From Naegleria gruberi (Eukaryota): 64,000 nt of DNA. The DNA lies in the NCBI GenBank assembly GCA_000004985.1, contig GG738898.1. One strand, 5' to 3'. Both the position numbers and the translations under genes were made by a program. The notes beneath the pieces are model-generated. The model was not told where the DNA came from. It searched no databases and saw only the letters and a program-made list of their open reading frames with translations. This document shows, piece after piece, positions 16,747 through 61,879 of the stretch (the stretch's first letter is position 1; the number at the start of each line of letters is the position of its first letter).

Positions 16747-16837
16747 GGTGAGTTGGTCGAGTGGTCTAAGACGACACGTTAAGGTATGTTTAATACCGTG
16801 TTCCGCAAGGGCGTGGGTTCAAATCCCACACTCATCA
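16747..16837 (+). tRNA. tRNA-Leu (anticodon AAG, type II long variable arm) with an 11-nt intron at about 16785..16795.
   Basis: The sequence is GGTGAGTTGGTCGAGTGGTCTAAGACGACACGTTAAGG[tatgtttaata]CCGTGTTCCGCAAGGGCGTGGGTTCAAATCCCACACTCATCA. The anticodon loop TTAAGGC equals the human tRNA-Leu-AAG loop. It has the GAGTGGTCTAA D-loop, an A73 discriminator and a following T-run. Confidence 0.8.
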
Positions 16838-19900: not shown

Positions 19901-22015
19901 AAAGGCGATACTCTCCCCTCCTACTGCAGAAGTTTTCATTGCTTCCACTCGTTTTGCCTTCTTTGATTTTCTTAACAAGTTTGCTGCTTCTTCCTCTTCA
20001 AGCTCGTGTGCTTCAGAGTAGAATTCATTTGCAGTTTCTGAATCGAACTTGACCTCTTCCAAATATCTTGCATAAATTCTCAAGAAGGACTTGTTCATCT
20101 TGAAAGCTGAGAGTCTGTTTGAAAATGCAGTGTCCAAATCATTCATGATGGCTGTGCATTGTGTATTGATGATTTCTAATGTTTCCACATTCACAATATC
20201 ATTCATCATTTCCTTGAAGAATTCTCTATGGAGTGCTTTGAATTCTTTCAGTTTGGAGTCTAAACGAGAGGCAAGTTGTTCTGCATCGGTATGGATAGCG
20301 ACAACTGGTTTGTTCTCCTTCTTGTTAATTTCCTTCATCAAATCATGACAAGCAATCTTGTCAGTGAGTGATGTACTTATTCTACTTAGTTTTGTCATTA
20401 GTGAGAGGGAATAATTTGTGGCTCTCTCCTCTGTCATGCAGTAATAGACCAATAATGTGGCAAAATATAAGGTTATTGGATTTGCCAAAACTCTACTACT
20501 ATGAGCCCCCTTAATGAGTGCCAGAGCCATGTCAGTATCTGTGAGTGAGCTATTTGGATCCTTTGGTTTTTCCTCATAATTTGTTGCTCTCTTACGAATA
20601 ATATCAACTGAGAAGCTAAAACGGAGAAAAATATTCAGTTGATTTGTTAGTTGTTTTTCTGAAATGTAAACTAGTATTGAGGTGGCTTTCTTTTCAATGA
20701 GACTTCGTATAGTCTCATTAGAAAGACTCTTTATAAGATTTGATTCTTTAGAAGAACTCAAATCCTCATATTGCCCACCTTGTGTGAGAATAATCTGTCC
20801 AATTCTTCTCTTGATAATTCTAATGTAAGCTTCCATAGCTATAATTCCTCCAACGAATCCAATGACAATCAACCCTAAGGTAAGACCCATCATTCCCAAT
20901 CCAAAATCCCATTTCACTGAAGTGTTAGTTAAAGAAGATATTAATGATCCAATGGCACCTCCAACTTTTGCTCCTGCAATTCCTGAATAAATCGAATTTT
21001 CCCAAGACTTTTGGAATGGAAGAGATAGAAACAAAGGAATAAACCATGAAATAGACATGACCAAATGCACAATTGCTCTCCCAAAAACTTTTTGAGAGGG
21101 TATAAAGAAAATAATGAACACTTGTGAAATATTCGTGATGGAGAAGAATGTTAAAGGCCAATCATAAACCGGTTTGAAAACAAGAGAGCTATCCCATGTA
21201 GGAGAAAAACTAAAACGTGTCGCCATTATACTAATGCACAAAGTGATGAAGGCAACAATTGAGAATGCATAAAGAGTTAAATTTGAATTTCCAAAACATC
21301 TCACACTAGAAAATCTCTGCAATGCATAATCTGAATTATCAATCTCCTCAAAGTATACTGTCTTTGAATAATCACATTCGATAAAACTTGTCAAAATAAA
21401 GGCAAATATCATTGATAACCCATTCATGAAAAAGCCAACAAATAGTAATAGATTCTTCAGTTTCTCCATGTGCTTACTAGCTTTAAAAACTCCCCAAGCG
21501 GAGAACATGACCACCAACATGGCTATAAAACAAATGGTAATGACCAAACTAGTGATAACAACCATAGCATCATAGGGTACTAAATCCAATGAGAGTGTAA
21601 TTGGATAATTGAGAGCACGAAAAACCCACTCTCCATACTCTCCAAAATTAAAAGATCCCAACGTTGAGACCCAAACACTAGTCCACAATATATACAAATT
21701 ATACGCAACAGATAATAAAAGCTGTTTCCATCCTCTCCTCTGTTTTCTATCTTTCATTGATGAGATGAATGTAAAGATTGCCTGTTGTCCATTCCTCATG
21801 ATTGACGAAGTGATTGATGAAGATCGTCCCGTCTGATGACTTGTCTCACTCTCCACTATACTACTTCCATCGAAAACTTCATTTTGAGGCCTCCTTATTC
21901 CCTCAAAGAGAACTGTTGAATTATCTATTGATGCTGCTTGTAGTTGATGATGAGAAACCCCACCCTGAATAAGTATACTCGTTCGCGGAGAAACAACAAC
22001 ACCAGAATGTTCCAT
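16937..22015 (-). CDS. Large multi-pass membrane nucleotidyl cyclase, intron-free, 1692 aa. It has two clusters of TM helices, a PAS-like domain and a C-terminal class III adenylyl/guanylyl cyclase catalytic domain.
   Basis: It has a genuine ATG at 22013-15. The PAS-like region reads ...VVDGAVLCNSACEIEIFNPAAQKMFNCKQSDTLGTSLTSLF.... The cyclase domain reads FTPEMYDDY..., DMVGFTKMSS, KIKTIGDAYFCVGGI, and GLNTGESVAGVIGTKKFAYDLWGDAVNTASRMEST, the class III CHD signature. Confidence 0.8.
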   Translation of the reverse strand: MEHSGVVVSPRTSILIQGGVSHHQLQAASIDNSTVLFEGIRRPQNEVFDGSSIVESETSHQTGRSSSITSSIMRNGQQAIFTFISSMKDRKQRRGWKQLLLSVAYNLYILWTSVWVSTLGSFNFGEYGEWVFRALNYPITLSLDLVPYDAMVVITSLVITICFIAMLVVMFSAWGVFKASKHMEKLKNLLLFVGFFMNGLSMIFAFILTSFIECDYSKTVYFEEIDNSDYALQRFSSVRCFGNSNLTLYAFSIVAFITLCISIMATRFSFSPTWDSSLVFKPVYDWPLTFFSITNISQVFIIFFIPSQKVFGRAIVHLVMSISWFIPLFLSLPFQKSWENSIYSGIAGAKVGGAIGSLISSLTNTSVKWDFGLGMMGLTLGLIVIGFVGGIIAMEAYIRIIKRRIGQIILTQGGQYEDLSSSKESNLIKSLSNETIRSLIEKKATSILVYISEKQLTNQLNIFLRFSFSVDIIRKRATNYEEKPKDPNSSLTDTDMALALIKGAHSSRVLANPITLYFATLLVYYCMTEERATNYSLSLMTKLSRISTSLTDKIACHDLMKEINKKENKPVVAIHTDAEQLASRLDSKLKEFKALHREFFKEMMNDIVNVETLEIINTQCTAIMNDLDTAFSNRLSAFKMNKSFLRIYARYLEEVKFDSETANEFYSEAHELEEEEAANLLRKSKKAKRVEAMKTSAVGGESIAFLEGLYNNRANDKSVEVDLDDISENVLLNGVEEDPSLKRDQKFKMALAQPIGHEFNICLALCFCLLSAAFLICAAVLSLVFSDGVLADVKFVQQVCEPTVSSYAIFKQIRNQQIVLQMSQSQNSVSLQKALPQIYHEMVLSLEQSDQSVEKITELLKERVDFYVEHIEHVKLMSQGKKIGKFTPEMYDDYNGETKKLYLPTVNKRSSGYYDSFIVKNVSLSEISSILMHLVESYPSSGFNSTVDVYNFMILYLNYNSFTNAFVEICFDFIERCKVNANTFTNDYLYFFVSIGGVYVICAVSFLLYMKIFFSQIGRTLKTYEKNIKKELISNIYTELGKYTHSNSSQFLNTFNRKRNMLRYLIFIVMALASLLCASMMFAELVLNSELGYSTMLSVKQTTETLVLTQNIGFKMGELTFSNLPSSLFNSKTLFNDSALNLFKDDIRFNVTDLRSTYNDMIYGKIGVSPSILGIVPRIDEIITTKACENCSSLESIVDEFVVSCVKLNEDLMKNIYSDSQLLEKHFQIDELAHTISIVLLEFLALFTITRSTPSVSMVIVFGVLGAICIVSIFLMLRSIFKSHSKNTEHMRMLLNYVQYEELELSDELREYVLYEKLPSRSLFGKKKNISKGTGDESKVRNILNSVVDGAVLCNSACEIEIFNPAAQKMFNCKQSDTLGTSLTSLFDRNNRDELSRLISELIQSTLTTKESQGETVDLDCLRKNQTKFPAKVNLFSTLFDNKPVITCFIKDVTNDKKQLALLAEEKKKSENLLRSILPESVASRLKSGDTFIAEKFDDMTCFFSDMVGFTKMSSTLNPTQLVGMLNNVVNGFDALIDKHNLEKIKTIGDAYFCVGGIKLSEKDDHPERTLKFAIDVFQVVRSYNEEHRLEFGHQINIRIGLNTGESVAGVIGTKKFAYDLWGDAVNTASRMESTSLSGRIQISLSTYERVKHIGFEFEERSVEVKGKGLCNTYLLSDKHHVKAVVEDEIFE

Positions 22016-29426: not shown

Positions 29427-29532
29427 GGCTACGGCCATATCACGATGAATGCACCTCATCCCGTCCGATTTGAGAAGTTAAGCATCGTCGAGCCACATCA
29501 GTACTGAGGTTGGAGACAACTTGGGAACCTGT
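29427..29532 (+). rRNA. 5S rRNA gene copy lacking the last 12 nt of helix I, so probably a truncated copy or pseudogene.
   Basis: The sequence is GGCTACGGCCATATCACGATGAATGCACCTCATCCCGTCCGATTTGAGAAGTTAAGCATCGTCGAGCCACATCAGTACTGAGGTTGGAGACAACTTGGGAACCTGT. This is 5S-like (GGCCATA...CCCGTCCGAT...GAAGTTAAGC). It is 100% identical to the minus copy over 106 nt. It then diverges and lacks the GGTGCTGTAGTC 3' end. Confidence 0.6.
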
Positions 29533-29888
29533 AAATTCATTTTACAAATTGTTAGATGAATTGTGGGGTGGATTAGCATTTGAATTTGTGAAGAATTCAA
29601 ATAGGATAAAGACTATTAACAAACAAACATTATTTTTGATCAATTTGAAGCATTAACAAATATAATTAGATTACATAAATCTTTTCTCATTGTTTCCACT
29701 AATTAATTCTAATCCAAATTTGTTTGCCTTATTAAATCCAATAACTTGAAGGAAAATCTTGGAAGACAGAGAGTACTGGAGTAAGATTGTGCTTAGACTT
29801 GAAATTCTAAAAATATTTTGAAAACAACAAACTCGTGTCCCTGAATCATGGTATTTTAATTGGCATTTCCTATTCTCTCCATAAAGAT

Positions 29889-29893
29889 AAAAA
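29889..29893 (-). terminator. Pol III T5 terminator directly downstream of the minus-strand 5S gene.
   Basis: A5 on the plus strand is T5 on the gene strand, right after the 5S 3' end. Confidence 0.55.
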
Positions 29894-30011
29894 GACTACA
29901 GCACCACAGGTTCCCAAGTTGTCTCCAACCTCAGTACTGATGTGGCTCGACGATGCTTAACTTCTCAAATCGGACGGGATGAGGTGCATTCATCGTGATA
30001 TGGCCGTAGCC
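29894..30011 (-). rRNA. 5S rRNA gene, full length at about 118 nt.
   Basis: The reverse complement is GGCTACGGCCATATCACG...GGGAACCTGTGGTGCTGTAGTC. The 3' end pairs with the 5' end as helix I (GGCUACGGC / GCUGUAGUC). A T5 run follows. Confidence 0.8.
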
Positions 30012-35623: not shown

Positions 35624-36955
35624 TTATCTCAAGTAAAGAGCACCATTTCTGTTGGTGAGTGTAGCACTAGCAACACTTGTTGTATCATAGACGTATTGAA
35701 CACCAGGATTGAATCCAGGACCTGGACCTCCCTCAGGACATGAAGGATAAGTATAAGTTGCCCAAACCGTGCCTGCACCTGCATTCATGAAAGAGTCAGT
35801 TGTAGCACGTGGAATACCCATTCTGAACCCCATACAGTGCATATCTGATGTCTTACTATAGGTGACATAGGTTGGAAGAGTTAGAACATTCTTCAAATTG
35901 TAACATGTTGCAGGAATGGCAGCATAATAAGTTTGCATCGTTGGATCACTGTATGCTGTTACTCTTGTTCTTTGAACGTAATCTCTCAATCCTTGTGGAA
36001 TTGTACAATAGGCACTATATTGCCAATCATTTGTAAAGAAATTAGAAAAAGCAATAGTTGCTGCATTACCACTGTCAGTGGATGCTCTAATCTGAGTGGA
36101 AATATTCATCAAATCAGATGTTGGAATGTGGAATGTAATAGTATCATTTGTAGTGGTGGCAGCATTATCATCAAAGACGTGGAAGTGAGCTCCGTAATAG
36201 TCTCTTCTAATACCAGCAAACATGGTCCATCCTCCACCGTCTGTATCCATATCACAATAGACTGTCATGACTGTATTTCCAGGTTTAATTTGATACAATC
36301 CACTTCCTTCACCCAAGTACATTCTAGGAGCTATTGGATTTCTATACTCCTTACATGATCTTGCATAGGTTCCATCGGCATATTTAAATCCACTCACTGA
36401 ATTATAGCTGGTTGTTGTACCATTGACTGTTTCACAATTATCTCCAATGTAAGGTGATTTACAGGAACACTTATTGGAGGATGTACAGTTACCACGTCCA
36501 GAACAAACTGAGGCGCTTGTGGCGAGTACACCAAAACATGCCATTTGCATGCAATTGATTCCGGCCCATCCTGAGGCGCATCCTTGGTTGCAATCATCAC
36601 CACTATAATGTTGACATGTTGTTGTGATGGTGTTAACTTCCAATGAGAGACTATCGATGGCGGTTTGAATTTTATCAGATTGTTTTTGTCTCAGTATTAT
36701 AATTGAGGTCAAATTTGCATTTCCAGTAGAGTTGAGGAGGGAAATAGCAGACGTGATTTTAGCCTTTGTACTCACTAGCTTTGCAAGTTCTGCATTAAGG
36801 TCGGTAAGGTAGGATCTAATGCTGCATCCTCCTGGGAGAGTGCATGTAAAATTTTGTTGTCCATTCACAACATGATATGTTGCGGATGATGATAACAACC
36901 CAACCAAAATGAGCAGCAAGACTCGTGTGGAAATGAGATGAGCGATGCCTTGCAT
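35624..36955 (-). CDS. Secreted protein with a coiled-coil region, EGF-like Cys-rich modules and a fibrinogen-related-domain (FReD) A-subdomain-like core.
   Basis: The signal peptide is MQGIAHLISTRVLLLILVGLLSSSA. The EGF-like spacing is CQHYSGDDCNQGCASGWAGINC...CSGRGNCTSSNKCSCKSPYIGDNCE. The FReD-like block is CKEY...GSGLYQIKPGNTVMTVYCDMDTDGGGWTMF. Compare the FReD consensus C..y...G...sGvY.I.p......VyCDMetdGGGWTV. The region downstream of this diverges from canonical FReD. Confidence 0.55.
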   Translation of the reverse strand: MQGIAHLISTRVLLLILVGLLSSSATYHVVNGQQNFTCTLPGGCSIRSYLTDLNAELAKLVSTKAKITSAISLLNSTGNANLTSIIILRQKQSDKIQTAIDSLSLEVNTITTTCQHYSGDDCNQGCASGWAGINCMQMACFGVLATSASVCSGRGNCTSSNKCSCKSPYIGDNCETVNGTTTSYNSVSGFKYADGTYARSCKEYRNPIAPRMYLGEGSGLYQIKPGNTVMTVYCDMDTDGGGWTMFAGIRRDYYGAHFHVFDDNAATTTNDTITFHIPTSDLMNISTQIRASTDSGNAATIAFSNFFTNDWQYSAYCTIPQGLRDYVQRTRVTAYSDPTMQTYYAAIPATCYNLKNVLTLPTYVTYSKTSDMHCMGFRMGIPRATTDSFMNAGAGTVWATYTYPSCPEGGPGPGFNPGVQYVYDTTSVASATLTNRNGALYLR

Positions 36956-37740: not shown

Positions 37741-40700
37741 ATGCCAGCTACTATCTTGAACGGTTCTACCACTTCAAGTTCTGGTCTCAATATTAACCTT
37801 TCATTGTTGGTAAGTTTACATATTTCACATGAGCTTAATTATAATTCTTTATTGTTGTTGTTGCTGATCTTTCTCCACACCAATGACATCTGGCACTGTG
37901 ATCTCTCTTACTCTTTCGATATTTTAATATCACATGCTAAACTAATTACTTTGAATGGCCATGTTGTTTCTTTTCTAAATTCTCCACTTTGACCAAAACG
38001 CGGTCAATTCAACTTTTTAAAAAATTGGCATCACATTTGATCTTCTGAATCTTTGCAACGCGATTTTCCTTCTTTGCTCCTTTGGCGCTTTTTCTGGTGC
38101 GGTTCAATCATCATCAATATTAATTTATTGTTAAAATTACTTTTTTAAATGATGAATCCGTGTTGAGTAGAAAGGAGGTACTATTAGTCAGACAATTGTA
38201 TGTTTTTTAAATATTTTGTATGTTTAATATTTTGAATGTTAGGTTGGTGCAATTATTACAGCTTTGGTAGTTGCTTCCACAGTTGCTACTATTATCTTGG
38301 TTTCAGTTGGTGTTGGTTATTCTAGTCCTCAACCGTATGTACTTTTAAAATTCATTATTTGAAATTAATTGAAATCTAGTCAACCTGATTTTGCTACTAC
38401 TTACAAGAGAGTGCCTATTACTGTTGATGTACTCATAAATGATAACGATCCACGTGGTGGTAATCTTACTTTGACTCAAATTGTTGATCAACCAAAGTAT
38501 GGTACTGTCAAGATTCTTTCTCGTTCCCAAGTTGTTTATCAATCCATTGGTTCTTTCTCTGGAAATGACACTTTCAGTTATGAAGTTAGTAATTCCTTTG
38601 TTACAGCCAATGCTACTGTTACTGTTCAAGTTTTGAATAGACCTCCTCAAGCTGTTCCAATCTATAAGAAGATCTCCAAGAATGCTAATAAGGCTCTCGT
38701 TGATATTTTCAATTATATTGGTGACAATGATGAAAAGATTACTGATATTGATAATGATGTCTTGTATGTTACTGGCTTCGCTGATCAACAAGTTACCAGT
38801 GGTAATGCTCAAAGTTTAGGTGCAATTGAAATTGATCCTTACAATGGTTTCTTGTACACTCCTGTTAATGGTTTCAATGGTATCGAACAATTCAAGTATA
38901 CCATCTCAGATGGTAATGACACTGCTTCTTCAACTGTTACTGTTGAAGTTGAAAATGATGCTCCTGTTGCTACTGATGATGTTTACAGAATTCCAAAATA
39001 TAGTAGTTTGGAATTGCTCATTTTACAAAATGATTATGATATCAATGGTGATGATTTCAATGTTACCAACGCTGTTGGTGCTGGTTATGGTGCTCTTCGT
39101 GTTCAAGACAAGACTGTTGTCTATTTCACTTCAAGTGTTTTAACCAAAAAGTATACTGATTCTTTCGAATATTCAATTTCTGATAGTCAAGCTTCAGGAT
39201 CTGCTGTAGTTTCTGTTCAAGTTTACAATACTGAACCAACTGTCTACTCCAAGACTGTCACTGTTGGAAAGTCCTCTTCCAATAACCTCATTTCAATTGA
39301 TTACTCTGATCCTGATGGAAAGGATGTTGTCGTATTGACCAAAGTTACTCCTGCATTGGCCTCTCTTAATCCAGCTGCTTCCATGCAAGTTGCTAAGGGT
39401 ACTAAACGTGTCAACCTTGATTGTTGTGATTGGGTTAGCGTTGAAACTAATAATTACACTATTGTTTATACTCCAACTCCTGGAGTTGTTTACTCACAAA
39501 CTTTGGATATTTCCATGACAGATGGTGAATCTGATGGCTATGGTAAGATTACTATTAATGTAGTCAATAATCCACCTGTTGCTGTTGATGACACTGTTAC
39601 TTGTAATAAGAATCAACAAGTTTTGATTAATGTTCTTGCCAATGACTATGATGTTAACCCAGGCGATACTGAACTTCTTCAATTAACTAATAACGGTTGG
39701 CAATCAACTACCAAGAATGGTGGTTCTGTTTCTATTTATAATGCTACACATGTATTGTATGTTGCTCCAAAGGGTAGTTTGGCTACTGATGTTGCCTCCT
39801 ATAGAATCTATGATCAAAGCAAAGATGTACAAGGTAATCCAGATTCTACTGGTTTCTCAACTGGTAAGATTAGTATTAACATTATCAATAATCCACCTGT
39901 TCCTGTTGATGATGTTTTTACTATTTCAAAGGGTCTTAATGCCACTTTGAACGTTTTGAATAATGATTATGATCCTAATTTCGATCTTATTTCAACAATT
40001 AACTCTGTTGATAGATCAACTGTTAAAAATATCTTGGCTACTATTGTTAAGAATTCTGGTGAAAATGATACCTTATTCTATACTGCTGCTAATGAAGAGT
40101 ACACTGATTACCTTACTTATGATGTAATTGATGTTGACGGTTTGGTTTCTGAAAATAAGGCCACTGTCACTTTGAATGTTGTCAATAATGCTCCAGTTGC
40201 TAGAGATGATACTTATAGTGTTAACTGGAATCACAATATTTTGTGCCCTGTCAAGACTAATGATGCTGATATCAATGGTGATTTGCCTTCTTCCAAGATT
40301 GAAATTTATCAAAATCCATCTAATGGTGTTGTTGAAGTTATTAGTGATAGTGTAAGATATACTCCAAATACTGCATTTGTTGGTGTTGATACTTTCCAAT
40401 ACAAGTTGAACGATGGTAGTGTTGCCAATTTCTTGTCAAATGCTGCTACTGTTACAATTAATGTTTTGAATACTGCTCCTGTTGCTGTTGATGATACTGC
40501 CACTACTCACTGGAGAAATGATGCTGGTGTTTTAGTCAGTGTTTTGGTTAATGATTCTGATAATGAAGGTGATTCCTTGTCTGTTACCAATGCTCTAGTT
40601 GATGCTGTACTGCTTCAGTTTTTGATAGTCAAACTGTCAAGTTTGTTTCAACTCAAACCTCTGCTACTGTTGGTACTAAGCAAATTAAGTATACCGTCTC

Positions 40701-43700
40701 TGATGGAAACAAGAATACCATTGGAAATGTCAATGTCTTGGTTACAAATACCAAACCAGTCGCTTTTGCTGATGCTTACACTTACCACTGGGCTGCTCCA
40801 AAACAAACATTGAGTGTCATGTCTAACGATAAGGATGCCGACCTTGATCCAATTTCAATCAAATCTGTTTCTGGAAGTGCTGCCGCTGTTAAGAATGGAA
40901 ATGATATTGATTATACTCCAAAGAAGGATGGTGTTACTGATACCTTCCAATATGTCATTACTGATACTGTTACTGATGCTGATCCAGCAACTGTCACTGT
41001 TACTTTCACTAACAATGACAAGCCAGTTGCTTCAAGTGTTTCAACTTCTATTCACTGGAGAGCTTTCGCTGCTCAATCTAATCAACAAGATTTCTCTGTT
41101 TATTCCTCAACAACTGATGCTGATGGTGACGCTCTTACATTGACTGTTAATCCAACTGCTACTGGTATTTCTGGTGCTTCATGTAGCAAGACCACTGATT
41201 CAATTGCCAAGGTTAGAGTTACAGCTCCAACCAAGACTACTGGTTCTGCCACCTGTTCCTTCTCAGTTTCTGATGGTTTGGCAAATACTGGATCAAAGAC
41301 TGCTACTGTTACTATAACTAACAATGCTCCAACATGTACTGATATTACTGTTTTCTTCAATGCTATCTATGTGTCAGTTGGTCAAACATTCTCCGTTTCT
41401 TCATCTGTTAGTGATGCTGATTCTGCTGATGTTCCTTATTTGGCAGCTAGTAGTGCAATCATGTCTGGTTCATTCTCAGGTGATACATTCTCTGTTTCAA
41501 ATGGTAACCTCCTCTTCAAACCAAATGGTCAATTGGGTAATCGTGTTTATGGTTATAAGGTTACTGATGGTATTGTTGAATCTAGCCAATGTAAATTCAC
41601 TATCATTGTTAGCTCACTTTCTAATGCTGATTATTCACAAGCCTATGATGTTCACTGGAATGTTACCAAGGCTTTCCTTAATATTACTTCCAAGTTGACC
41701 ACATCAACCATTATGGGTATTGTTCAACAACCTTCTGAAGGAATTGCTTACTTTGAAGGTGGTAAGATTTATTTCACTCCTGCCAGAAAGATCTATCTTG
41801 ATTCTTTCATTGTTAGTGTTAAAGATGGTATTGTTAGTAACGTCTCTGTTTCAGTTTCCACTTACAATAATGCTCCAACTGCCAGTGTTCCAACTCAAAA
41901 TATTAATTGGGGTAAATCAGTTGTGATTGATTTGTTACAAAATTATGCTGATGCTGATTATTCTGCTGGTCGTGAAATTAAGGGAAAAATTTCTGGTGTT
42001 GACAAGACTGGTACTTTGGGTACTGTTTCTGCACTCTCTGGTTCAAGTGTTACTTACACTTCTCCAGCCAATTATGTTGGTTCTGATTCATTCAAAGCTA
42101 CTGCTACTGATGGTCTTGCCTTTGTAACTTTCACTGTTACTATCAATATAATCAATACTGCTCCAGTTACTAATGCCAAATCATACACTGTTCACTGGGC
42201 TGTTCACAAACTTGGTTACACAATGAATTTGGCCACAGGTGTCACTGATGGACAAAATGATCCATTGACTTATGGTATTGTTTCTGGAAGTGTTTCACCA
42301 TCTAGTGCTGGTACTGTTGCCATTTCCACTTCACCAAATGCTGTTGCTACTGCTGGTACATCTGTTTATTTGGGCAAGTTTACATACTCTTATACTGCTT
42401 CTGATTCTCTCCTCTCTTCTCCAGGTACTGCCACTGTTACTGTTTATAATACTATGGTTACACCTGTTGCTGACTCTTTGAGTGTTCACTGGAGAGCAAC
42501 TAATGTTCCTTTGAATCCATTTGCCAAGTTTGCTCCTACCTATAAGGATTCTGAAGGTGATAGTTTAACAATTCAAACTGCAACTGCTCAAAAGGGTACA
42601 GTTTCCATTGTTTCTGGTTCTCAATCATTACTTTACAATGCTCCAACTAGTCCACCTTCTCTTGGTACTGATGTAGTTTCATACAAGTTTACTGATGGTG
42701 CTGAATCTCTCCAAAGCACTGCTACTGTTGTCAATGTAAATGTTTATAACACTGTCCCAACTGCCAAGAATCAAGTTGTTTATGGAAAGTGGAATTCTCC
42801 TGTTTCAGTTTCTTTAGCTAATGTCTGTTCTGATATTGATACATTGGATATTCCATATGTTGCATTCAATGGTGTTATTTCAAATGTTGCTGGTGGTTCA
42901 ACAAGTCTCTCTGGTACAACTGTTACCTTCACTCCAAGTGTTACCTCTCTTGTTTTTACTCAAATTTCTGGTAATCTTTACAATGCTACTGCATCATTCA
43001 AATTCCAATGTTTCGATGGTATTTCTACCAGCACTGGTAATGTCACTATTATTCTTTCAAACAATGCTCCAACCGGAACTGGTAAGACTGTCAATATTGC
43101 CAGAGATTACACCAAGACAACTTATGATTTTACCTGGTCTGAAATTGCCACCTATGCCAACCCTGATGTTGATGGAGATTCAGTAACTATTACTAATCTT
43201 GTCTCTGTTGATTCTTCCATCACTGTGGAACAGGTATTAGATTGAACACTCCAAAGACTGTTTCTGGAACTAAGCAAATTACTTTCTACTTGTATGATGG
43301 TCTTCACTATAGCATCAGCAAGTTGACATTTACTGTAATCTTTAGTAATTCTGCTCCAACTTGTGGTGTTGTTTCAACAATATATTTAAATAAGAAGGGA
43401 AGTGTTGATCTCTCAACTAAATTCTCAGGAACAGATTCCAATAATGATCCAATTACTTTCACCTTATCTGGTTCACCTGGTTCATTGGGTACTTTGAGTG
43501 GTAAGGTATTTACTGCCTCAGCAACTAATACTGGTACTGTTACCTTCTCTTACACTGCAACTGATACACAATTGACAAGTTCATCATGTAGTATTCAAAT
43601 TATCATCCAAAATGCTAATCCATCTGCCAATGATACAATCTTTTATATTTATCCAACTGCTGATTCTTTGTCTCACTACTTGAGCTATAAGGCAACTGAT

Positions 43701-45086
43701 GCAGATGGTGATACTTTGACTTATACTGCTGGTTCAAACAATTGTTCATCCATTTCTACAGGTGTTAGCATGAACTCAGCAAGTGGATTGATCACATTCA
43801 AGAGAATTTACACTGTTGTTTCTGGTACTTGTAAAATGAGTGTTTCTGTATCTGATTCTAATACTCCTTCTGGTAAAAGTAATGCCACCATTACATTTGT
43901 GATCGTTCCAATTGATCCAGTTGCCAGAGATGACAGATTCTCAATTCCTCAAGGTCAAACAATCAGAATTTTCGCTTCACAAATCTTGGCAAATGACAAT
44001 GATGAATTGGGTACTTCTAGCACTCTCACATTATTGAACATTAGTTGTCCAGATGCTACTTATTGCCACAAGCAACCAAGATTTGTAACTGTTAATGATG
44101 AAATTGCTGTTGAAGTTGACTCTGACCAAAATACTTGCCAAGCTGATAAGTTCAGATATACAATGACTACTGCACTTGGAGCTATTAGAAGTGCTGATGT
44201 CTACATTGAGTTCAAGAATTGCTATTGTACTGCCAAACTTGACTTTGTCTTTTTATTGGACTCTTCTCAATCAATTGGTGTACCAAACTTTAACCTAATC
44301 AGAGATTTGTGTCAGAGAATTACTGGTAGAATGAAGCTTGCTGATGATGCCGTAAAAGTTTCCATCGTTCGCTTCCATTCTTCTGCTACACTGACCTTGG
44401 CCTTGTCAACTGATGGATCTTTGATCAATAAGACCTTATCTACTATGAAGTACGACGCTGGCTTTACCGCACAAGTGCCCGGACTAAGAGCTGCAGTCAA
44501 TGCATTAAGACCAGAAAATGGTGGAAGAGCTGATGCTGATAAGGTCATTTATATTTTAACAGATGGTCTTGCCAATGTACCTTGCGATTGTTCTTCTTGT
44601 GAATCTGAATGGGGAACAATTCCAAGTGTTTTCAAAGACTCTGTTCAAAACAAAATTATTAATGGAATGACTAATCCTGCAAAATCTACTGCCTTGAGAA
44701 ATATGTGTAAATATCAATATAATGACGGATCTGAATTGGTTGGAACTGATTGTAGTTCATGTAGTATGAAAGATGAATATATGTGTTTGCCATGTTCAGA
44801 TGCTATTCCTGTTGCTGCAAAGATTAATACTTGGAAACGTAATTCTAATGGAGTAGTTCCAAATGATCCTGATAATCCATATAATGGAAACAATAAGGTT
44901 CAATGGAAGGTTGTTGCTATGGCTGTCGGTGACGCCATGACCAATGTTTGGGGTTCAAGACAAATCGAAGGTATGAATTATGATTCAACTAGAGCTATTA
45001 CTGTTTCTTGGACTGATTTATCTGGTACCATGAGTGAAATTGTGGATCAATCTTGTAATCAAGTTAACGTTCAAGTTCCAGTTTAA
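37741..45086 (+). CDS. Giant type-II-like single-pass membrane adhesin of at least 2300 aa. It has a short N-terminal cytoplasmic tail, one TM helix, then about 25 tandem bacterial-Ig/cadherin-like (VCBS / tandem-95-type) repeats of about 90-100 aa, a C-terminal von Willebrand factor A domain and a Cys-rich tail. The exons are about 37741..37809, 38243..38334 (TM) and 38380..45086. The big exon carries two apparent 1-nt frameshifts, near 40605-40615 and 43225-43240.
   Basis: Exon 1 is MPATILNGSTTSSSGLNINLSLL|GTAAGT. Exon 2 encodes VGAIITALVVASTVATIILVSVGVGYSSPQP. A GTATGT...AATCTAG intron of 45 nt follows, with matching phase. The repeats have the pattern PVAxDDxYxxxxNxxLxxxVLxNDxDxxGDxLxvt...GtvxxxxxxvxYTPxxxFxGxDxFxYxxxDGxxxxxATVTIxVxN. 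The VWA domain reads KLDFVFLLDSSQSIGVPNFNLIRDLCQRITGRMKLADDAVKVSIVRFHSSATLTLALS...ADKVIYILTDGLANV. The three consecutive ORFs at 38369..40813, 40738..43245 and 43242..45086 overlap by a few nt with +1 frame changes. Confidence 0.7.
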
Positions 45087-58008: not shown

Positions 58009-59737
58009 GTTATTGTTGTTGTGGTTTTATGGGTAACAATCTATGTGCTGCTGTGGACGACTACTTTGTAGAAGGTTGAATGTGTGTTACCAGAGTTGTG
58101 TTCTTCGTCAGTAGATTTTGGAATGAGCGGGAAATTGTTGTTTTTTTTTGAAATAAAAGTAATAACCGTTGTTCGTCTGATAACTTTGTTTTAAAAACGA
58201 CCAACTACTGCCCATCAAATAAATACTGTTGGATAATGATGATACTCAGTACGATAATAAACAGGAGCTGTGTGAGGAATGAACCTGGGCGATGAATAAT
58301 TAAAGTGGTTGTTTTTTATTTTGATGTGGAGACAAGTGAACCAAGAGAGACACCAACCTCTAACAAATTGGATTTTCGCTCCAGCCTTTGCCGGCCAGGA
58401 AAATTGTACAAGGTTGGAACAAAACAGCCCAAAGAGGAACCAAGCAACCCAACCAGTGAGAAGTAATCTCTCTGCTGTATTATGGAATTTACTATCCAAT
58501 AATAAAAAGATAATTGTATCAACTGGGTTGATAGTATTGATGGTAATGTATTACAGTTTTACAATGGTTAGATAATGATAGGGTTTTTATGAGGAAGCTG
58601 ATGTTGGAAATTTTAGAAACTTGAAGAGAACTTGGTTGGAATATCGGGATGTTGATGAGCTTTTCAACAATTTGTTTGAATGAGGCTTTTCCAAGTTGAT
58701 TGATCTACAGTGATTCGTTACAATGTGATTTTCATTTCCTCATGATTCTTTGTAATTGGTTCTTAATGGTTCAACAAGAGTGTTTATTGTCATGTTTATT
58801 AATGTCTCAGATTTTAAATATTTTCTCGTTCAAAAAATATTCAACAAATGGTACTGTGGACATGAGGATTTTCGGAGTGGTTTTACATCATGAAACCACC
58901 AAACTTTCACATCATTATCTCAACATGATCTTTTGTAATTTTTATTGGTGGATTATCATCATGAAATTGGAATTTATTTTTCATGATGGAAAATCACAAT
59001 TTGGTGTTCCATCATCGGATCATTCACCAACCATCATTATTGTTTTCCATCAATATAATAATAGTATTTATGGAAATTAATTTTTAGTAATGTAATTTTG
59101 GTGAAATGTCCAAAATTTTCACTAAATTCATCACTGCTGGATCTACTGGACAAGTTGGAAAACTGGCAATTTTGAAAAAGTATGGACCATAACTCAACAT
59201 GTACTTCACCAACTTGAATCATATCTTTTAGTACTATTTAAATAGATAATAAACATCATATTTAATATCAGATTTTCGTCATGTTGTCAATTTACCAAGT
59301 TCCGATATTTGATGCTACCAGAGTGGATTCATAGCTCAATTACAAATCAAACAACAATTCATAATGCTTATTATGTTATTAAATTTATAATTTAGAGTCT
59401 TGTAGCATAATTTGTGAAAATAATGGTGATATTTTCATGTTTTTATTGTTTTTCTCATGATGTAGACATTGTCTCTCACTGAAACATCACGAATAGCATG
59501 TCATTTATCCATTCTCTACCAGATTATTATCTTTTACTGTAATTTTCACTATTGGATATTTTACTTTTAATATTTGTGATACTTTACTATTATATTCAAT
59601 ANATAAGGGATAAGAAATATTCATTAGAAGAAGATAGATTCCTAGTAATATTCTCTCAATTTATATTTCTAACTAGTAATTCTAACCAGAGGTGTAGGTT
59701 TGGTTCTGAACTCATTTAATGTTTTGAAATTTTTACG

Positions 59738-61646
59738 NNNNNNNNNNNNNNNNNNNNNNNNNNNNNNNNNNNNNNNNNNNNNNNNNNNNNNNNNNNNNNN
59801 NNNNNNNNNNNNNNNNNNNNNNNNNNNNNNNNNNNNNNNNNNNNNNNNNNNNNNNNNNNNNNNNNNNNNNNNNNNNNNNNNNNNNNNNNNNNNNNNNNNN
59901 NNNNNNNNNNNNNNNNNNNNNNNNNNNNNNNNNNNNNNNNNNNNNNNNNNNNNNNNNNNNNNNNNNNNNNNNNNNNNNNNNNNNNNNNNNNNNNNNNNNN
60001 NNNNNNNNNNNNNNNNNNNNNNNNNNNNNNNNNNNNNNNNNNNNNNNNNNNNNNNNNNNNNNNNNNNNNNNNNNNNNNNNNNNNNNNNNNNNNNNNNNNN
60101 NNNNNNNNNNNNNNNNNNNNNNNNNNNNNNNNNNNNNNNNNNNNNNNNNNNNNNNNNNNNNNNNNNNNNNNNNNNNNNNNNNNNNNNNNNNNNNNNNNNN
60201 NNNNNNNNNNNNNNNNNNNNNNNNNNNNNNNNNNNNNNNNNNNNNNNNNNNNNNNNNNNNNNNNNNNNNNNNNNNNNNNNNNNNNNNNNNNNNNNNNNNN
60301 NNNNNNNNNNNNNNNNNNNNNNNNNNNNNNNNNNNNNNNNNNNNNNNNNNNNNNNNNNNNNNNNNNNNNNNNNNNNNNNNNNNNNNNNNNNNNNNNNNNN
60401 NNNNNNNNNNNNNNNNNNNNNNNNNNNNNNNNNNNNNNNNNNNNNNNNNNNNNNNNNNNNNNNNNNNNNNNNNNNNNNNNNNNNNNNNNNNNNNNNNNNN
60501 NNNNNNNNNNNNNNNNNNNNNNNNNNNNNNNNNNNNNNNNNNNNNNNNNNNNNNNNNNNNNNNNNNNNNNNNNNNNNNNNNNNNNNNNNNNNNNNNNNNN
60601 NNNNNNNNNNNNNNNNNNNNNNNNNNNNNNNNNNNNNNNNNNNNNNNNNNNNNNNNNNNNNNNNNNNNNNNNNNNNNNNNNNNNNNNNNNNNNNNNNNNN
60701 NNNNNNNNNNNNNNNNNNNNNNNNNNNNNNNNNNNNNNNNNNNNNNNNNNNNNNNNNNNNNNNNNNNNNNNNNNNNNNNNNNNNNNNNNNNNNNNNNNNN
60801 NNNNNNNNNNNNNNNNNNNNNNNNNNNNNNNNNNNNNNNNNNNNNNNNNNNNNNNNNNNNNNNNNNNNNNNNNNNNNNNNNNNNNNNNNNNNNNNNNNNN
60901 NNNNNNNNNNNNNNNNNNNNNNNNNNNNNNNNNNNNNNNNNNNNNNNNNNNNNNNNNNNNNNNNNNNNNNNNNNNNNNNNNNNNNNNNNNNNNNNNNNNN
61001 NNNNNNNNNNNNNNNNNNNNNNNNNNNNNNNNNNNNNNNNNNNNNNNNNNNNNNNNNNNNNNNNNNNNNNNNNNNNNNNNNNNNNNNNNNNNNNNNNNNN
61101 NNNNNNNNNNNNNNNNNNNNNNNNNNNNNNNNNNNNNNNNNNNNNNNNNNNNNNNNNNNNNNNNNNNNNNNNNNNNNNNNNNNNNNNNNNNNNNNNNNNN
61201 NNNNNNNNNNNNNNNNNNNNNNNNNNNNNNNNNNNNNNNNNNNNNNNNNNNNNNNNNNNNNNNNNNNNNNNNNNNNNNNNNNNNNNNNNNNNNNNNNNNN
61301 NNNNNNNNNNNNNNNNNNNNNNNNNNNNNNNNNNNNNNNNNNNNNNNNNNNNNNNNNNNNNNNNNNNNNNNNNNNNNNNNNNNNNNNNNNNNNNNNNNNN
61401 NNNNNNNNNNNNNNNNNNNNNNNNNNNNNNNNNNNNNNNNNNNNNNNNNNNNNNNNNNNNNNNNNNNNNNNNNNNNNNNNNNNNNNNNNNNNNNNNNNNN
61501 NNNNNNNNNNNNNNNNNNNNNNNNNNNNNNNNNNNNNNNNNNNNNNNNNNNNNNNNNNNNNNNNNNNNNNNNNNNNNNNNNNNNNNNNNNNNNNNNNNNN
61601 NNNNNNNNNNNNNNNNNNNNNNNNNNNNNNNNNNNNNNNNNNNNNN
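59738..61646. other. Assembly gap of 1909 N. Other N-runs are at 8439-8478, 15226-15275, 31370-31442, 55904-56134 and 63116-63165.
   Basis: These are runs of n characters in the sequence. The gap sits inside or at the 5' edge of the retroelement. Confidence 0.95.
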
Positions 61647-61879
61647 ATCACCTCCAAACAACAAGAGAAGGCGATTAAATCTGCTGAAAAAGTAAAAGCA
61701 GCAGAAACTATTGAAAAAGTCAACAAATGGGCCAGCAGAACCCCTAATTTTCGTAAGTTCCCCACTAGATACGATAATAGACAAGCTGGCTACAACTACA
61801 ACAACAACAACAACCACAACAACAACTTCAACCAAGGACAAGGTAATAGTTACCAATCAAACAATCTGAAGATTCAACA

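What the first reader, a model, noticed from the sequence alone, without database searches (positions are those of the whole stretch)
37741..45086. Giant membrane-anchored adhesin built from about 25 bacterial-style Ig/cadherin-like (VCBS/tandem-95-type) repeats plus a C-terminal VWA domain, with two internal +1 frameshifts
The repeat unit PVAxDD...VLxNDxDxxGDxL...YTPxxxFxGxDxFxYxxxDG...ATVTIxV is the unit typical of bacterial RTX/VCBS-type surface adhesins and is unusual in a eukaryotic nuclear gene. Here it is embedded in a spliced gene with a short cytoplasmic tail exon, a separate TM-helix exon and a 6.7-kb repeat exon. That architecture points to a horizontally acquired or convergently evolved adhesion module now wired into a type-II membrane topology. 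The VWA domain and Cys-rich tail at the distal end suggest ligand binding away from the membrane. Two single-nucleotide frame changes at about 40.61 kb and about 43.23 kb, neither in a homopolymer, could be sequencing errors, recent pseudogenisation or programmed frameshifts. The repeat array itself is also prone to mis-assembly.
Basis: partly seen in the sequence, partly recalled or inferred. Interest (0 to 1): 0.65.

Follow-up and report, generated by a model that had tools for sequence, protein, structure and literature searches.

The report
Giant Naegleria surface adhesin gene
This is a real Naegleria gruberi gene for a 244-kDa membrane-anchored surface protein, made of 20 bacterial-type cadherin-like repeats tipped by a metal-dependent binding domain; the public gene model is wrong, its two frame breaks are probably draft-assembly errors, and it belongs to an undescribed family of likely amoeba adhesion proteins.

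Summary
The window is Naegleria gruberi nuclear DNA. The finding is locus NAEGRDRAFT_81261 (XP_002672355.1).

- **Architecture.** The main features are real. There is a short N-terminal tail, one transmembrane helix and a long array of bacterial-type tandem-95 repeats (Pfam Big_9, Cadherin_4, Cadherin_5). A C-terminal VWA domain has an intact MIDAS metal-binding site.
- **Corrections.**
  - There are 20 repeats, not about 25.
- The gene has four exons.
  - The "Cys-rich tail" is an insertion inside the VWA fold.
  - Both frame breaks are single missing nucleotides, which is −1 type, not +1.
- **Frame breaks.** Adding one base at each site gives one ORF of 2298 codons. It is collinear with uninterrupted 2309-2316-aa homologues in N. 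fowleri and N. lovaniensis. The GenBank model (1515 aa) bridges the breaks with artificial introns. I judge draft-assembly error the most likely cause, but cannot exclude a recently disabled allele.
- **Origin.** Only the repeats are bacterial-type. The full architecture, with its conserved N-terminal motif and VWA insert, was found only in eukaryotes (Naegleria, Willaertia and metagenome contigs with eukaryotic neighbour genes). This is an old, host-adapted family, not a recent transfer.
- **Expression and literature.** An N. fowleri homologue was detected by mass spectrometry in extracellular vesicles. I found no paper that describes the family.

The parts
37741..37809 (+). Exon 1: start codon and aa 1-23 (MPATILNGSTTSSSGLNINLSLL), the cytosolic N-terminal tail. 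It contains the family-invariant N-x-S-L motif.
   Evidence: Sequence read. The GTAAGT donor is at 37810. The same N-terminus is used in GenBank model P0025. Motif conservation is shown in A2.
37810..38170 (+). Intron 1 (361 nt, GTAAGT...TAG).
38171..38197 (+). Exon 2: a 27-nt micro-exon encoding KGGTISQTI (aa 24-32).
   Evidence: A TAG acceptor lies at 38168-70 and a GTATGT donor at 38198. Homologues have LSLL-KGGTITQTI-VGG at this point, and the N. fowleri DNA shows it too. K24 and Q30 are nearly invariant in 12 family members.
38198..38242 (+). Intron 2 (45 nt, GTATGT...TAG).
   Evidence: N. fowleri has an intron within 1 nt of this position.
38243..38334 (+). Exon 3: the single transmembrane helix or signal anchor (VGAIITALVVASTVATIILVSVGVGY) and the start of the ectodomain.
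   Evidence: This is the only Kyte-Doolittle peak above 1.6 in the whole protein, at window starts aa 25-42. It is conserved in the family.
38335..38379 (+). Intron 3 (45 nt, GTATGT...TAG, phase 2). It is absent from the N. fowleri homologue.
38380..45086 (+). Exon 4 (6.7 kb): the repeat array, the VWA domain and the stop codon. It is interrupted by two single-nucleotide gaps.
   Evidence: It is collinear with homologues of 2309-2316 aa.
38324..44222 (+). Array of 20 tandem cadherin-like beta-sandwich repeats, R01-R20, each 86-112 aa, of the tandem-95 / Big_9 / Cadherin_4/5 type. NDxDxxGD-type acidic motifs are present in R01, R03, R05-R09 and R20.
   Evidence: Pfam and NCBIfam NF012211. Self-profile segmentation with per-repeat coordinates. 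Acidic motifs. The AF2 model of R06-R07 has pLDDT 94.5 and matches the cadherin-like modules of SraP, cadherin EC pairs and RTX-adhesin repeats.
40607..40608 (+). Frame break 1, in repeat R08. One nucleotide is missing: GCT-G[ ]T-ACT, where homologues have Gly (VGTATLVDSQTVKFV against Ng A?TASVFDSQTVKFV). The frame goes from 2 to 1.
43228..43229 (+). Frame break 2, in repeat R17. One nucleotide is missing from the codon G?A between ...SSITV and TGIRL... (homologues have ...T[AS][TS]GIRL). The frame goes from 1 to 0.
44223..45083 (+). C-terminal VWA (integrin I-like) domain. The MIDAS residues are DSSQS at 44259-44273, Thr at 44466-44468 and TDG at 44559-44567. A Cys-rich insertion (about 44580-44798) lies inside the fold. 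Ten Cys are invariant across the family, including Cys near both ends of the domain.
   Evidence: Pfam VWA. Alignment A1 with invariant columns. AF2 model with pLDDT 83 and pTM 0.85. Foldseek hits to MIC2, TRAP, ANTXR2, VWF A3 and the integrin alpha-M I domain spanning about 280 columns. Translations.

Best explanation
The region is the N. gruberi nuclear gene NAEGRDRAFT_81261.

**Gene and protein.** Read correctly, it has four exons (37741-37809, 38171-38197, 38243-38334 and 38380-45086). It encodes a protein of about 2298 aa, 244 kDa and pI 4.6. The domain order is:
- a conserved N-terminal tail of about 30 aa, inferred to be cytosolic;
- one transmembrane signal anchor;
- 20 cadherin-like beta-sandwich repeats of the bacterial tandem-95 type;
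- a C-terminal VWA domain with a complete MIDAS site and a disulfide-rich insertion.

**Inferred mechanism.** The protein is inserted N-in, C-out (type II). The repeat array forms a long stalk, probably stiffened by Ca2+. At roughly 4.5 nm per cadherin-type domain (general knowledge), it would be on the order of 80-90 nm long. The stalk holds the VWA domain far from the membrane. There, the MIDAS-bound metal coordinates an acidic group on a ligand such as substrate, prey surface or matrix. The invariant juxtamembrane motif (N-x-S-L-L-K-G-G-T-I-x-Q-T-I-V-G) would couple the protein to a cytosolic partner. In layout it resembles bacterial RTX/LapA-type adhesins (cell-proximal N-terminal anchor, extender, distal ligand-binding domain). 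In its head domain it resembles TRAP/MIC2 and integrin I domains.

**Frame breaks.** Both are single missing bases relative to an otherwise intact ORF. They are most likely errors in the gapped draft assembly. If real, they mark a very recent disabling of this copy.

**Shown:** gene identity, exon structure by homology, domain content, conserved MIDAS, collinear intact homologues, distribution only in eukaryotes among the proteins examined, and protein-level expression of an N. fowleri homologue.

**Inferred:** topology, Ca2+ rigidity, adhesive function, cytosolic coupling, and the cause of the frame breaks.
For: **Organism and locus.** A neighbouring ORF is 100% identical to an N. gruberi protein. 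P0025, which is XP_002672355.1 / NAEGRDRAFT_81261, matches the locus at 99.9% over 1515 aa.

**Domains.**. The array has 20 repeats.

**Repeat fold.** The AF2 model has pLDDT 94.5. Foldseek finds the SraP cadherin-like modules, cadherin EC tandems and the A. hydrophila RTX-adhesin repeats.

**VWA domain.** D-x-S-x-S, T and D are invariant or nearly so in 12 family members. The model has pTM 0.85. The best structural matches are MIC2, ANTXR2, Mfa5, VWF A3, integrin alpha-M I and TRAP.

**Membrane anchor.** There is a single hydrophobic peak. The N-terminal module is conserved.

**Micro-exon.**

**Intactness.**
- Adding two single bases gives one ORF of 2298 codons with no stop.
- Homologues of 2309-2316 aa align end to end at 53-55% identity with no break at either site.
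- GC3 is 0.22-0.25 in all three segments.

**Draft status of the assembly.** The window contains an N-run gap of about 2.1 kb and an isolated N.

**Expression.** N. fowleri A0A6A5CD16 (P0028) was identified by LC-MS/MS in three immunoreactive bands of extracellular vesicles (PMC9312180 Table 1).

Against: - There is no direct evidence here for topology, surface location, ligand or adhesion in N. gruberi.
- No transcript or read data were available. A metagenome scan for the break-1 sequence found nothing.
- Two indel errors in 7 kb of about 8x Sanger assembly (coverage from memory) is more than a typical consensus error rate predicts. A real disabled allele therefore stays plausible.
- The canonical NDxDxxGD motif is degenerate in repeats R10-R19, so uniform Ca2+ rigidity is uncertain.
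- The EV bands that contain the N. fowleri homologue are 80-140 kDa, far below 244 kDa. This means fragments or carry-over.
- The N-terminal tail of the N. gruberi protein has only one charged residue, so the positive-inside rule gives little help on orientation.
Confidence: 0.7

Rival explanations
1. The two single-base gaps are real. This copy, or the allele captured in the assembly, is a recently disabled pseudogene. It would make at most a truncated product of about 806 aa plus an out-of-frame tail, with the anchor and 7.5 repeats but no VWA domain. One possible cause is relaxed or negative selection on adhesion in the axenic laboratory strain.
For: - Both breaks lie in the middle of conserved repeats and leave no room for an intron.
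- Two indel errors in 7 kb is high for a Sanger consensus (general knowledge).
- The paralogue NAEGRDRAFT_46423 also has a much shortened model, 1343 aa against about 2300. Several N. gruberi copies may therefore carry defects, though poor modelling could equally explain it.
Against: - Apart from the two sites, there is no stop codon and no further frame break in 2298 codons.
- Codon bias is the same before and after the breaks.
- The scaffold is a gapped draft that contains ambiguous bases.
- Once the first frameshift had disabled the gene, a second one fixed within decades of culture is unlikely (inference).
Confidence: 0.3
2. The frame changes are programmed: −1 ribosomal frameshifting or another recoding event produces the full-length protein from the sequence as it stands.
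For: Both shifts go in the same direction (−1). The ORFs overlap, so read-through is geometrically possible.
Against: - Neither site has an X XXY YYZ slippery heptamer (GAT GCT GTA CTG and ACT GTG GAA CAG).
- The N. fowleri and N. lovaniensis homologues in the alignment (five intact sequences) encode the same residues in one continuous frame. The feature is therefore not conserved.
- To my knowledge, nuclear recoding of this kind has not been described in Heterolobosea.
Confidence: 0.02
3. The gene is a recent bacterial transfer, or bacterial contamination in the assembly, rather than a native eukaryotic family.
For: The repeat unit matches bacterial profile families. Outside the eukaryotic family, the named hits are bacterial tandem-95 proteins.
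Against: - The gene has three spliceosomal introns and a eukaryotic signal-anchor N-terminus.
- It is flanked by N. gruberi genes and 5S rRNA genes.
- Full-length collinear homologues exist in N. fowleri and N. lovaniensis, and a longer (3559 aa) family member in Willaertia shares the N-terminal module, the N-terminal repeats and the VWA domain.
- The N-terminal motif and the VWA insert are absent from every named bacterial hit.
- Overall GC and RSCU fall within the neighbours' range; GC3 (0.22-0.25) is slightly below theirs (0.26-0.44).
- Each repeat is closest to the repeat at the same position in homologues.
Confidence: 0.02
4. The protein is a surface or secreted structural component, not an adhesion receptor. 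Examples would be a glycocalyx or spacer coat, a cyst-wall or flagellate-stage component, or a shed decoy. The N-terminal hydrophobic segment might then be cleaved as a long signal peptide.
For: - The ectodomain is rich in Thr, Ser and Asn (31%) and has about 20 N-x-S/T sequons.
- The N. fowleri homologue appears in extracellular-vesicle fractions and as sub-full-length bands.
- No functional data exist.
Against: - The MIDAS site is strictly conserved across distant family members, which argues for ligand binding.
- The tail and juxtamembrane motif are strongly conserved. That would be pointless if the segment were cleaved off and degraded.
- The hydrophobic stretch is about 26 aa, which is transmembrane length and longer than a signal-peptide core.
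Confidence: 0.2

Closest known systems
Bacterial tandem-95 repeat proteins (NCBIfam NF012211; Pfam Big_9 PF17963, Cadherin_4 PF17803, Cadherin_5 PF17892), for example the Geitlerinema sp. PCC 7407 protein P0037
   Same: Both have the same repeat unit of about 95 aa (PVAxDD...NDxDxxGD...YTP...G.D.F.Y...DG...A.V.I.V) in long head-to-tail arrays. Identity is 25-30% over the best local alignment of the whole protein and about 31-33% over a two-repeat stretch.
   Different: The bacterial proteins lack the conserved N-terminal motif with its single transmembrane anchor. They also lack this VWA domain with its Cys-rich insert. The Naegleria gene has introns and host-like composition.
Bacterial RTX (LapA, MpIBP, FrhA type) giant adhesins
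   Same: The layout and likely mode of action match: the N-terminus is held at the cell surface, a long extender is built of tandem Ig- or cadherin-like Ca2+-binding domains, and ligand-binding domains sit at the distal C-terminal end (in LapA these include a vWFA domain; general knowledge). Structurally, A. hydrophila RTX-adhesin repeats are among the Foldseek hits.
   Different: There are no RTX nonapeptide repeats and no type I secretion signal (PF00353 gives no hit). Anchoring is by a eukaryotic signal-anchor helix, not by an outer-membrane retention module. The extender domains belong to the tandem-95 family, not the BIg family.
Apicomplexan TRAP/MIC2 adhesins and integrin I domains / anthrax toxin receptor VWA domains
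   Same: They are the best structural matches for the head domain, with a conserved MIDAS D-x-S-x-S...T...D. They are also extracellular, metal-dependent ligand-binding domains on membrane-anchored adhesins.
   Different: Sequence identity is only 12-17%. TRAP and MIC2 are type I proteins with TSR domains and a C-terminal cytoplasmic tail. The Naegleria VWA carries a Cys-rich insert of about 70 aa and sits at the extreme C-terminus of a protein anchored at its N-terminus.
Homologues in other Heterolobosea: N. fowleri FDP41_006209 and FDP41_010565, N. lovaniensis C9374_008469 and C9374_006824 (auto-named 'VWFA domain-containing protein'); longer lectin-bearing relatives ('Tandem-95 repeat protein', 3429-3559 aa) in N. 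fowleri, N. lovaniensis and Willaertia magna
   Same: The 2309-2316-aa proteins share the same architecture end to end, at 53-55% identity over the whole length, with the same N-terminal motif and VWA insert.
   Different: Those genes are uninterrupted. Intron positions at the 5' end differ. The longer relatives in N. lovaniensis add a C-type lectin domain (PF00059). None has been characterised. One was listed in an EV proteome.
Animal CSPG/FRAS1-type 'Cadherin_3' repeats and classical cadherins
   Same: The beta-sandwich fold is related. Cadherin EC tandems are Foldseek hits, and there is a weak Cadherin_3 match (E 0.0027, below the cut-off).
   Different: Classical Cadherin PF00028 gives no significant match. 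Cadherin_3 scores 18 bits against a cut-off of 25.5, while Big_9 scores 221 bits.

Membership tests
Tandem-95 repeat / Big_9 / Cadherin_4 / Cadherin_5 domain family | A significant match to the family profiles above their curated cut-offs, in multiple tandem copies | tested here: met
   - Big_9 scores 220.9, 132.5 and 48.4 bits (cut-off 23.6).
- Cadherin_4 scores 184, 66 and 42 bits (cut-off 25.1).
- Cadherin_5 scores 97 and 73 bits (cut-off 26.5).
- NF012211 scores 153.5 bits in segment 1 (cut-off 90) and 84 and 36 bits in segments 2 and 3.
- The self-profile finds 20 copies.
Tandem-95 repeat / Big_9 / Cadherin_4 / Cadherin_5 domain family | A beta-sandwich (Ig- or cadherin-like) fold for the unit | tested here: met
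   The AF2 model of R06-R07 has pLDDT 94.5 and shows two all-beta domains. Foldseek finds the SraP cadherin-like modules, cadherins and RTX-adhesin repeats. This is a predicted structure, not a solved one.
VCBS repeat (Pfam PF13517 / TIGR01965) | A match to the VCBS profiles | tested here: not met
   No VCBS family appears at E <= 0.01 in Pfam or NCBIfam for any segment.
Classical cadherins (including FAT cadherins) | Cadherin EC repeats (PF00028) with the DXNDN/DXD linker motifs, on a type I membrane protein | tested here: not met
   PF00028 is not hit. The anchor is N-terminal. Only the fold is similar.
RTX adhesins secreted by type I systems | C-terminal RTX nonapeptide repeats (PF00353) with a T1SS signal, and an N-terminal retention module | tested here: not met
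   HemolysinCabind gives no hit. The C-terminus is the VWA domain itself. The N-terminus is a transmembrane helix.
VWA / integrin I-like domain with MIDAS | The Rossmann-like VWA fold | tested here: met
   PF00092 gives E 1.3e-14 at 55.3 bits (cut-off 23.8). The AF2 model has pTM 0.85, and 392 PDB matches reach E <= 0.001. The listed top 50 are VWA, integrin I or TRAP/MIC2 domains.
VWA / integrin I-like domain with MIDAS | A complete MIDAS motif: D-x-S-x-S, then Thr, then Asp | tested here: met
   DSSQS lies at 44259-44273, Thr at 44466-68 and TDG at 44559-67. D21, S25, T90 and D122 are invariant, and S23 is at least 90% conserved, in 12 family members. Metal binding itself was not testable.
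Heterolobosean giant type-II tandem-95/VWA family (unnamed; defined here) | The N-terminal motif N-x-S-L-[LMVF]-[KQ]...Q followed by a single transmembrane helix | tested here: met
   The motif is present once the micro-exon is included. It occurs in 17 of the 283 fetched proteins, all of them family members and none a named bacterial protein.
Heterolobosean giant type-II tandem-95/VWA family (unnamed; defined here) | A collinear repeat array in which each repeat matches the repeat at the same position in other members, plus a C-terminal VWA with the PCxC...CxPC[AS][DE] insert | tested here: met
   Positional best hits hold for all 20 repeats.
Type II (N-in, C-out) plasma-membrane protein | An uncleaved N-terminal signal anchor, with the C-terminal part outside the cell | not testable with these tools
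   This is inferred from the single 26-aa hydrophobic helix near the N-terminus, the disulfide-rich VWA domain and the sequons in the C-terminal part. No topology predictor or experiment was available.
Programmed −1 ribosomal frameshift site | A slippery heptamer X XXY YYZ at the shift site, conserved among relatives | tested here: not met
   The sequences at both sites lack the heptamer. Homologues have no frame change there.

The most novel reading that the evidence does not exclude
This family could be the missing substrate and matrix adhesion receptor of Naegleria, including the pathogen N. fowleri. It would be a eukaryote-assembled counterpart of bacterial RTX adhesins: a type II anchor with a conserved cytosolic motif, a stalk of anciently acquired bacterial-type cadherin-like repeats, and an integrin-I-like MIDAS head. 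On this reading it mediates attachment to surfaces, prey or host matrix and links to the cortex. It might also account for the reported "integrin-like" reactivity that genome searches could not explain (PMC8296547). The evidence does not exclude this. MIDAS and the tail motif are conserved, and one N. fowleri member is detected at protein level in immunoreactive EV bands. The reported integrin-like antigen is much smaller, however, at about 60-70 kDa (and general knowledge).
Probability: 0.15. Interest if true: 0.75.

Novelty: new variant of a known kind. Interest (0 to 1): 0.4.

Why it matters
1. **The public record is wrong.** XP_002672355.1 / D2VUE5 has 1515 aa with four artificial internal splices. 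It lacks a conserved micro-exon and about 770 aa. The same probably applies to the paralogue NAEGRDRAFT_46423. Comparative and proteomic studies that use these models will under-count and mis-map this family.

2. **It defines an undescribed family.** Heterolobosea, and at least some unidentified eukaryotes, have a multi-gene family of 220-380-kDa proteins anchored at the N-terminus. Bacterial-type cadherin-like repeats carry a MIDAS VWA head. This shows how an anciently acquired bacterial repeat module was fitted with a eukaryotic anchor and head domain.

3. **It gives concrete candidates for an open question.** Which molecules Naegleria uses to attach to surfaces, prey and host tissue is explicitly unresolved for N. 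fowleri (PMC8296547). These proteins are testable candidates. One is already seen in immunoreactive vesicle fractions, so it may have value as an antigen or drug target.

4. **The frameshift issue is probably mundane** and should not be over-read.

Tried and rejected
- **ORF3-only homology search.** It returned only weak bacterial and collagen hits and no Naegleria protein. This was a failure of the word pre-filter, as the full-length search showed. I discarded the apparent result that the locus has no homologues or annotation.
- **Exact-sequence look-ups.** I looked up window ORFs and the N. gruberi models P0025 and P0032 to see the called genes or fetch the paralogue's DNA. None are on record, so I could not inspect the paralogous locus for similar frame breaks.
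- **Metagenome scan.** I searched for the break-1 sequence with or without an extra base and found no match. No independent read evidence was obtainable.
- **Introns at the two breaks.** I rejected this. The coding sequence in the two frames abuts within 18 nt or less at break 1 and 33 nt or less at break 2. The only GT...AG candidates are 12 nt and 7 nt long.
- **Placing break 1 in the T5 run at 40619-23.** I rejected this because the frame-1 reading TASVFDSQ matches the homologues' TATLVDSQ upstream of the run.
- **PDB sequence search with the repeats.** It gave no hit. Fold comparison was needed instead.
- **Literature searches.** Searches on tandem-95, VCBS, cadherin-like, von Willebrand and locus tags gave nothing on this family. 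The exceptions were a passing note of an expressed tandem-95 homologue in Vermamoeba and the EV proteome table.
- **Jamerson et al. 2012 (PMC3352113)** is not held.
- **ARAGORN** added nothing useful.

Full report
**Source and locus.**
- The window is Naegleria gruberi nuclear DNA. The ORF at 16940-22015(−), a PAS/adenylate-cyclase protein, is 100% identical over 1692 aa to an N. gruberi predicted protein on a 310,422-bp scaffold.
- The window is gene-dense at about 35% GC. It carries two 5S rRNA genes and contains an N-run gap, so it is a draft scaffold.
- The finding corresponds to GenBank locus NAEGRDRAFT_81261 (XP_002672355.1, UniProt D2VUE5), a 1515-aa "predicted protein".

**Check of the observation.**
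- Three long ORFs on the + strand cover 38369-45086, in frames 2, 1 and 0.
- Pfam finds Big_9 (E 2.8e-66, 1e-38 and 1.8e-12), Cadherin_4, Cadherin_5 and one VWA domain (E 1.3e-14). NCBIfam finds the tandem-95 repeat model NF012211.
- There is no hit to VCBS, classical Cadherin (PF00028) or RTX repeats.
- A profile built from one repeat and iterated on the protein itself finds 20 contiguous repeats (aa 60-2011; DNA 38324-44222), not about 25.
- At DNA level there are only short stretches (61 nt or less) of 60-84% similarity at the domain borders. Sister repeats score only 15-27 bits against each other. Mis-assembly through repeats is therefore not a concern.

**Gene structure.**
- Aligning the conceptual protein with the N. 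fowleri and N. lovaniensis homologues showed nine residues (KGGTITQTI) missing between exon 1 and the transmembrane exon.
- The N. gruberi "intron 1" contains exactly this sequence. AAAGGAGGTACTATTAGTCAGACAATT (KGGTISQTI) lies at 38171-38197, preceded by TAG and followed by GTATGT.
- The N. fowleri DNA has an intron within 1 nt of the same downstream position. Lys24 and Gln30 of this segment are nearly invariant in 12 family members.
- The gene therefore has four exons, with introns of 361, 45 and 45 nt.

**The frame breaks.**
- Frame 1 opens at 40603, and the frame-2 reading stops looking like protein after ...NALVDA. Homologues read ...VGTATLVDSQTVKFV where N. gruberi reads ...DA?TASVFDSQTVKFV. 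That places one missing base in GCT-GT-ACT at 40607/8.
- At the second site, homologues read ...T[AS][TS]GIRL, while N. gruberi has ...SSITV in frame 1 and TGIRL in frame 0. That places one missing base in the codon at 43228/9.
- Both are −1-type breaks (one nucleotide too few), not +1.
- Neither site can hold an intron, and neither has a slippery heptamer.
- Inserting one N at each site in the four-exon CDS gives a single ORF of 2298 codons with no stop. The product is 244 kDa with pI 4.6.
- The GenBank model copes with the breaks by inventing introns and loses about 770 residues.
- The ORF is otherwise perfect, and GC3 is the same (0.22-0.25) in all three segments. The scaffold is a gapped draft with ambiguous bases.
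- I rate assembly error as the most likely cause, at roughly 55-65%. A real, very recent disabling of this copy or allele is second, at about 30%. Programmed recoding is about 2%.
- I could not obtain independent reads. The exact-sequence look-ups failed and the metagenome scan was empty.

**Relatives.**
- The full-length search found uninterrupted homologues of 2309-2316 aa. They are N. fowleri FDP41_006209, FDP41_010565 and CAG4715805, and N. lovaniensis C9374_008469 and C9374_006824. They share 53-55% identity with the N. gruberi protein and are collinear from the first to the last residue.
- More distant members are:
  - N. gruberi paralogues (NAEGRDRAFT_46423, 79811 and 72752);
  - proteins of 3429-3559 aa in N. 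lovaniensis, N. fowleri and Willaertia magna, of which the N. lovaniensis ones carry an extra C-type lectin domain;
  - several metagenome proteins.
- Three metagenome members sit on contigs whose neighbours are plainly eukaryotic: Arf, RGS, Cullin, HECT, F-box and APC3.
- All these members share two features that no named bacterial hit has:
  - an N-terminal module, N-x-S-L-L-K-G-G-T-I-x-Q-T-I-V-G, followed by a single transmembrane helix;
  - a C-terminal VWA domain with a characteristic Cys-rich insert.
- Each of the 20 repeats is most similar to the repeat at the same position in homologues. Many also match the equivalent position in the distant members. The array is therefore old and is not being homogenised.
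- The repeat unit itself is extremely common elsewhere, with 36,409 representative proteins at E <= 0.001. The named ones are bacterial tandem-95 or Ig-like proteins.
- My reading is that a bacterial-type repeat module was acquired long ago, before Naegleria and Willaertia diverged. It was then combined with a eukaryotic anchor and a VWA head. Whole-gene or recent transfer, and contamination, are excluded by the introns, the flanking genes, the homologues and the composition (GC and RSCU within the neighbours' range).

**Structure.**
- An AlphaFold2 model of repeats R06-R07 (15-sequence alignment A3) has pLDDT 94.5 and shows two beta-sandwich domains in tandem.
- Its best solved matches include the cadherin-like modules of the S. 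aureus adhesin SraP, many classical cadherin and protocadherin EC tandems, the structure of a GH107 fucoidanase (6dms, the top hit), and the tandem repeats of an Aeromonas RTX adhesin.
- Acidic NDxDxxGD-type motifs are present in R01, R03, R05-R09 and R20 and are degenerate elsewhere.
- The last 295 residues (alignment A1) fold as one VWA domain, with pLDDT 83 and pTM 0.85. Foldseek aligns about 280 columns to T. gondii MIC2, ANTXR2, P. gingivalis Mfa5, VWF A3, the integrin alpha-M I domain, Plasmodium TRAP and collagen VI.
- The Cys-rich stretch lies between the TDG strand and the next helix. It is an insertion, not a tail.
- The MIDAS residues are invariant or nearly so across 12 family members, and ten Cys are invariant.

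**Likely function.**
- There is only one hydrophobic segment, near the N-terminus. The remainder is disulfide-bearing, sequon-rich and built of extracellular-type domains. This supports an N-in, C-out orientation, though that is inferred and not shown.
- The layout (surface-proximal N-terminal anchor, long extender, distal ligand-binding VWA) mirrors bacterial RTX/LapA-type adhesins. The head resembles the MIDAS domains of TRAP/MIC2 and integrins.
- I therefore propose a long-reach, metal-dependent adhesion receptor for substrate, prey or matrix. The conserved tail motif would provide cytosolic coupling.
- Two literature points support this:
  - The N. fowleri homologue A0A6A5CD16 was identified by LC-MS/MS in all three immunoreactive bands (about 140, 100 and 80 kDa) of extracellular vesicles (PMC9312180, Table 1). 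The family is thus expressed as protein and is associated with membrane-derived (vesicle) material.
  - A genome-wide study states that adhesion factors in N. fowleri "remain mysterious" and that no integrin homologue exists (PMC8296547).
- I found no paper that describes this family. A Vermamoeba genome paper notes an expressed tandem-95 homologue whose best match is bacterial (PMC7125106).

**Verdict.**
Several details are wrong: the repeat number, the frameshift sign, the exon count, the "tail" and the mis-assembly risk.
- The evolutionary claim needs tempering. The repeat module is ancient and the family is specific to eukaryotes.
- The frame breaks are probably artefacts.
- The gene is already in GenBank but is badly modelled, and the family is uncharacterised.
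- I class it as a new variant of a known kind: a giant repeat adhesin, here in a eukaryotic type II form with a MIDAS head. I rate it of moderate interest.

Noticed in passing
It encodes part of a juxtamembrane motif that is nearly invariant across the family.
   Followed up: yes
window 37741-45086 (GenBank model P0025, 1515 aa): The public gene model bridges the two frame breaks and two further stretches with artificial introns, losing about 770 aa. The N. gruberi paralogue NAEGRDRAFT_46423 (1343 aa, where about 2300 are expected) looks similarly truncated.
   Followed up: partly
window 59739 to about 61870, and position 59602: There is an assembly gap (N run of about 2.1 kb) and an isolated ambiguous base. 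This explains the GC of 0.07 at 60-62 kb and the spurious multi-frame ORFs at 59669-61937. It shows the scaffold is a draft.
   Followed up: partly
window 29427-29545 (+) and 29893-30011 (−): Two 5S rRNA genes lie in opposite, diverging orientation about 350 bp apart. One scores much lower than the other (69.6 against 105.4 bits), so it may be a degenerate copy.
   Followed up: no
window 35624-36955 (−): The immediately upstream neighbour is a 443-aa protein whose hydrophobic N-terminus looks like a signal peptide. It has EGF-like Cys motifs and a short, partial match to the fibrinogen C-terminal domain (residues 216-247 only, E 3e-6). That domain is unusual in a protist. The exact product is not on record in the gene index.
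   Followed up: no
window 16940-22015 (−): A 1692-aa protein carries TmcB-like TPR, PAS and class III cyclase domains. It belongs to a Naegleria and Willaertia paralogue family, with 50% and 34% identical N. gruberi paralogues.
   Followed up: partly
window 12335-15298 (+): A 988-aa ORF carries a strong serine beta-lactamase/transpeptidase-fold domain (PF00144, E 8.5e-68, two stretches). It could be another gene of bacterial type.
   Followed up: no
window 11764-11850 and 16747-16837 (+): Rfam calls two tRNA genes of 87 and 91 nt, long enough to contain introns or long variable arms. ARAGORN reports only the second, with an undetermined anticodon.
   Followed up: partly
L003 8001-8500 (N. fowleri VFQX01000051.1): The N. 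fowleri homologue has different 5' intron positions. One intron lies after ...GSTT, and one lies within 1 nt of N. gruberi intron 2. There is no counterpart of N. gruberi intron 3. Introns have therefore turned over in the anchor-coding region while the protein sequence stayed conserved.
   Followed up: partly
(tool behaviour): The word-indexed homology search with the 614-aa C-terminal ORF missed every Naegleria homologue, including the locus's own model, that the full-length query later found. Negative results from that tool on repeat-rich queries are unreliable.
   Followed up: yes
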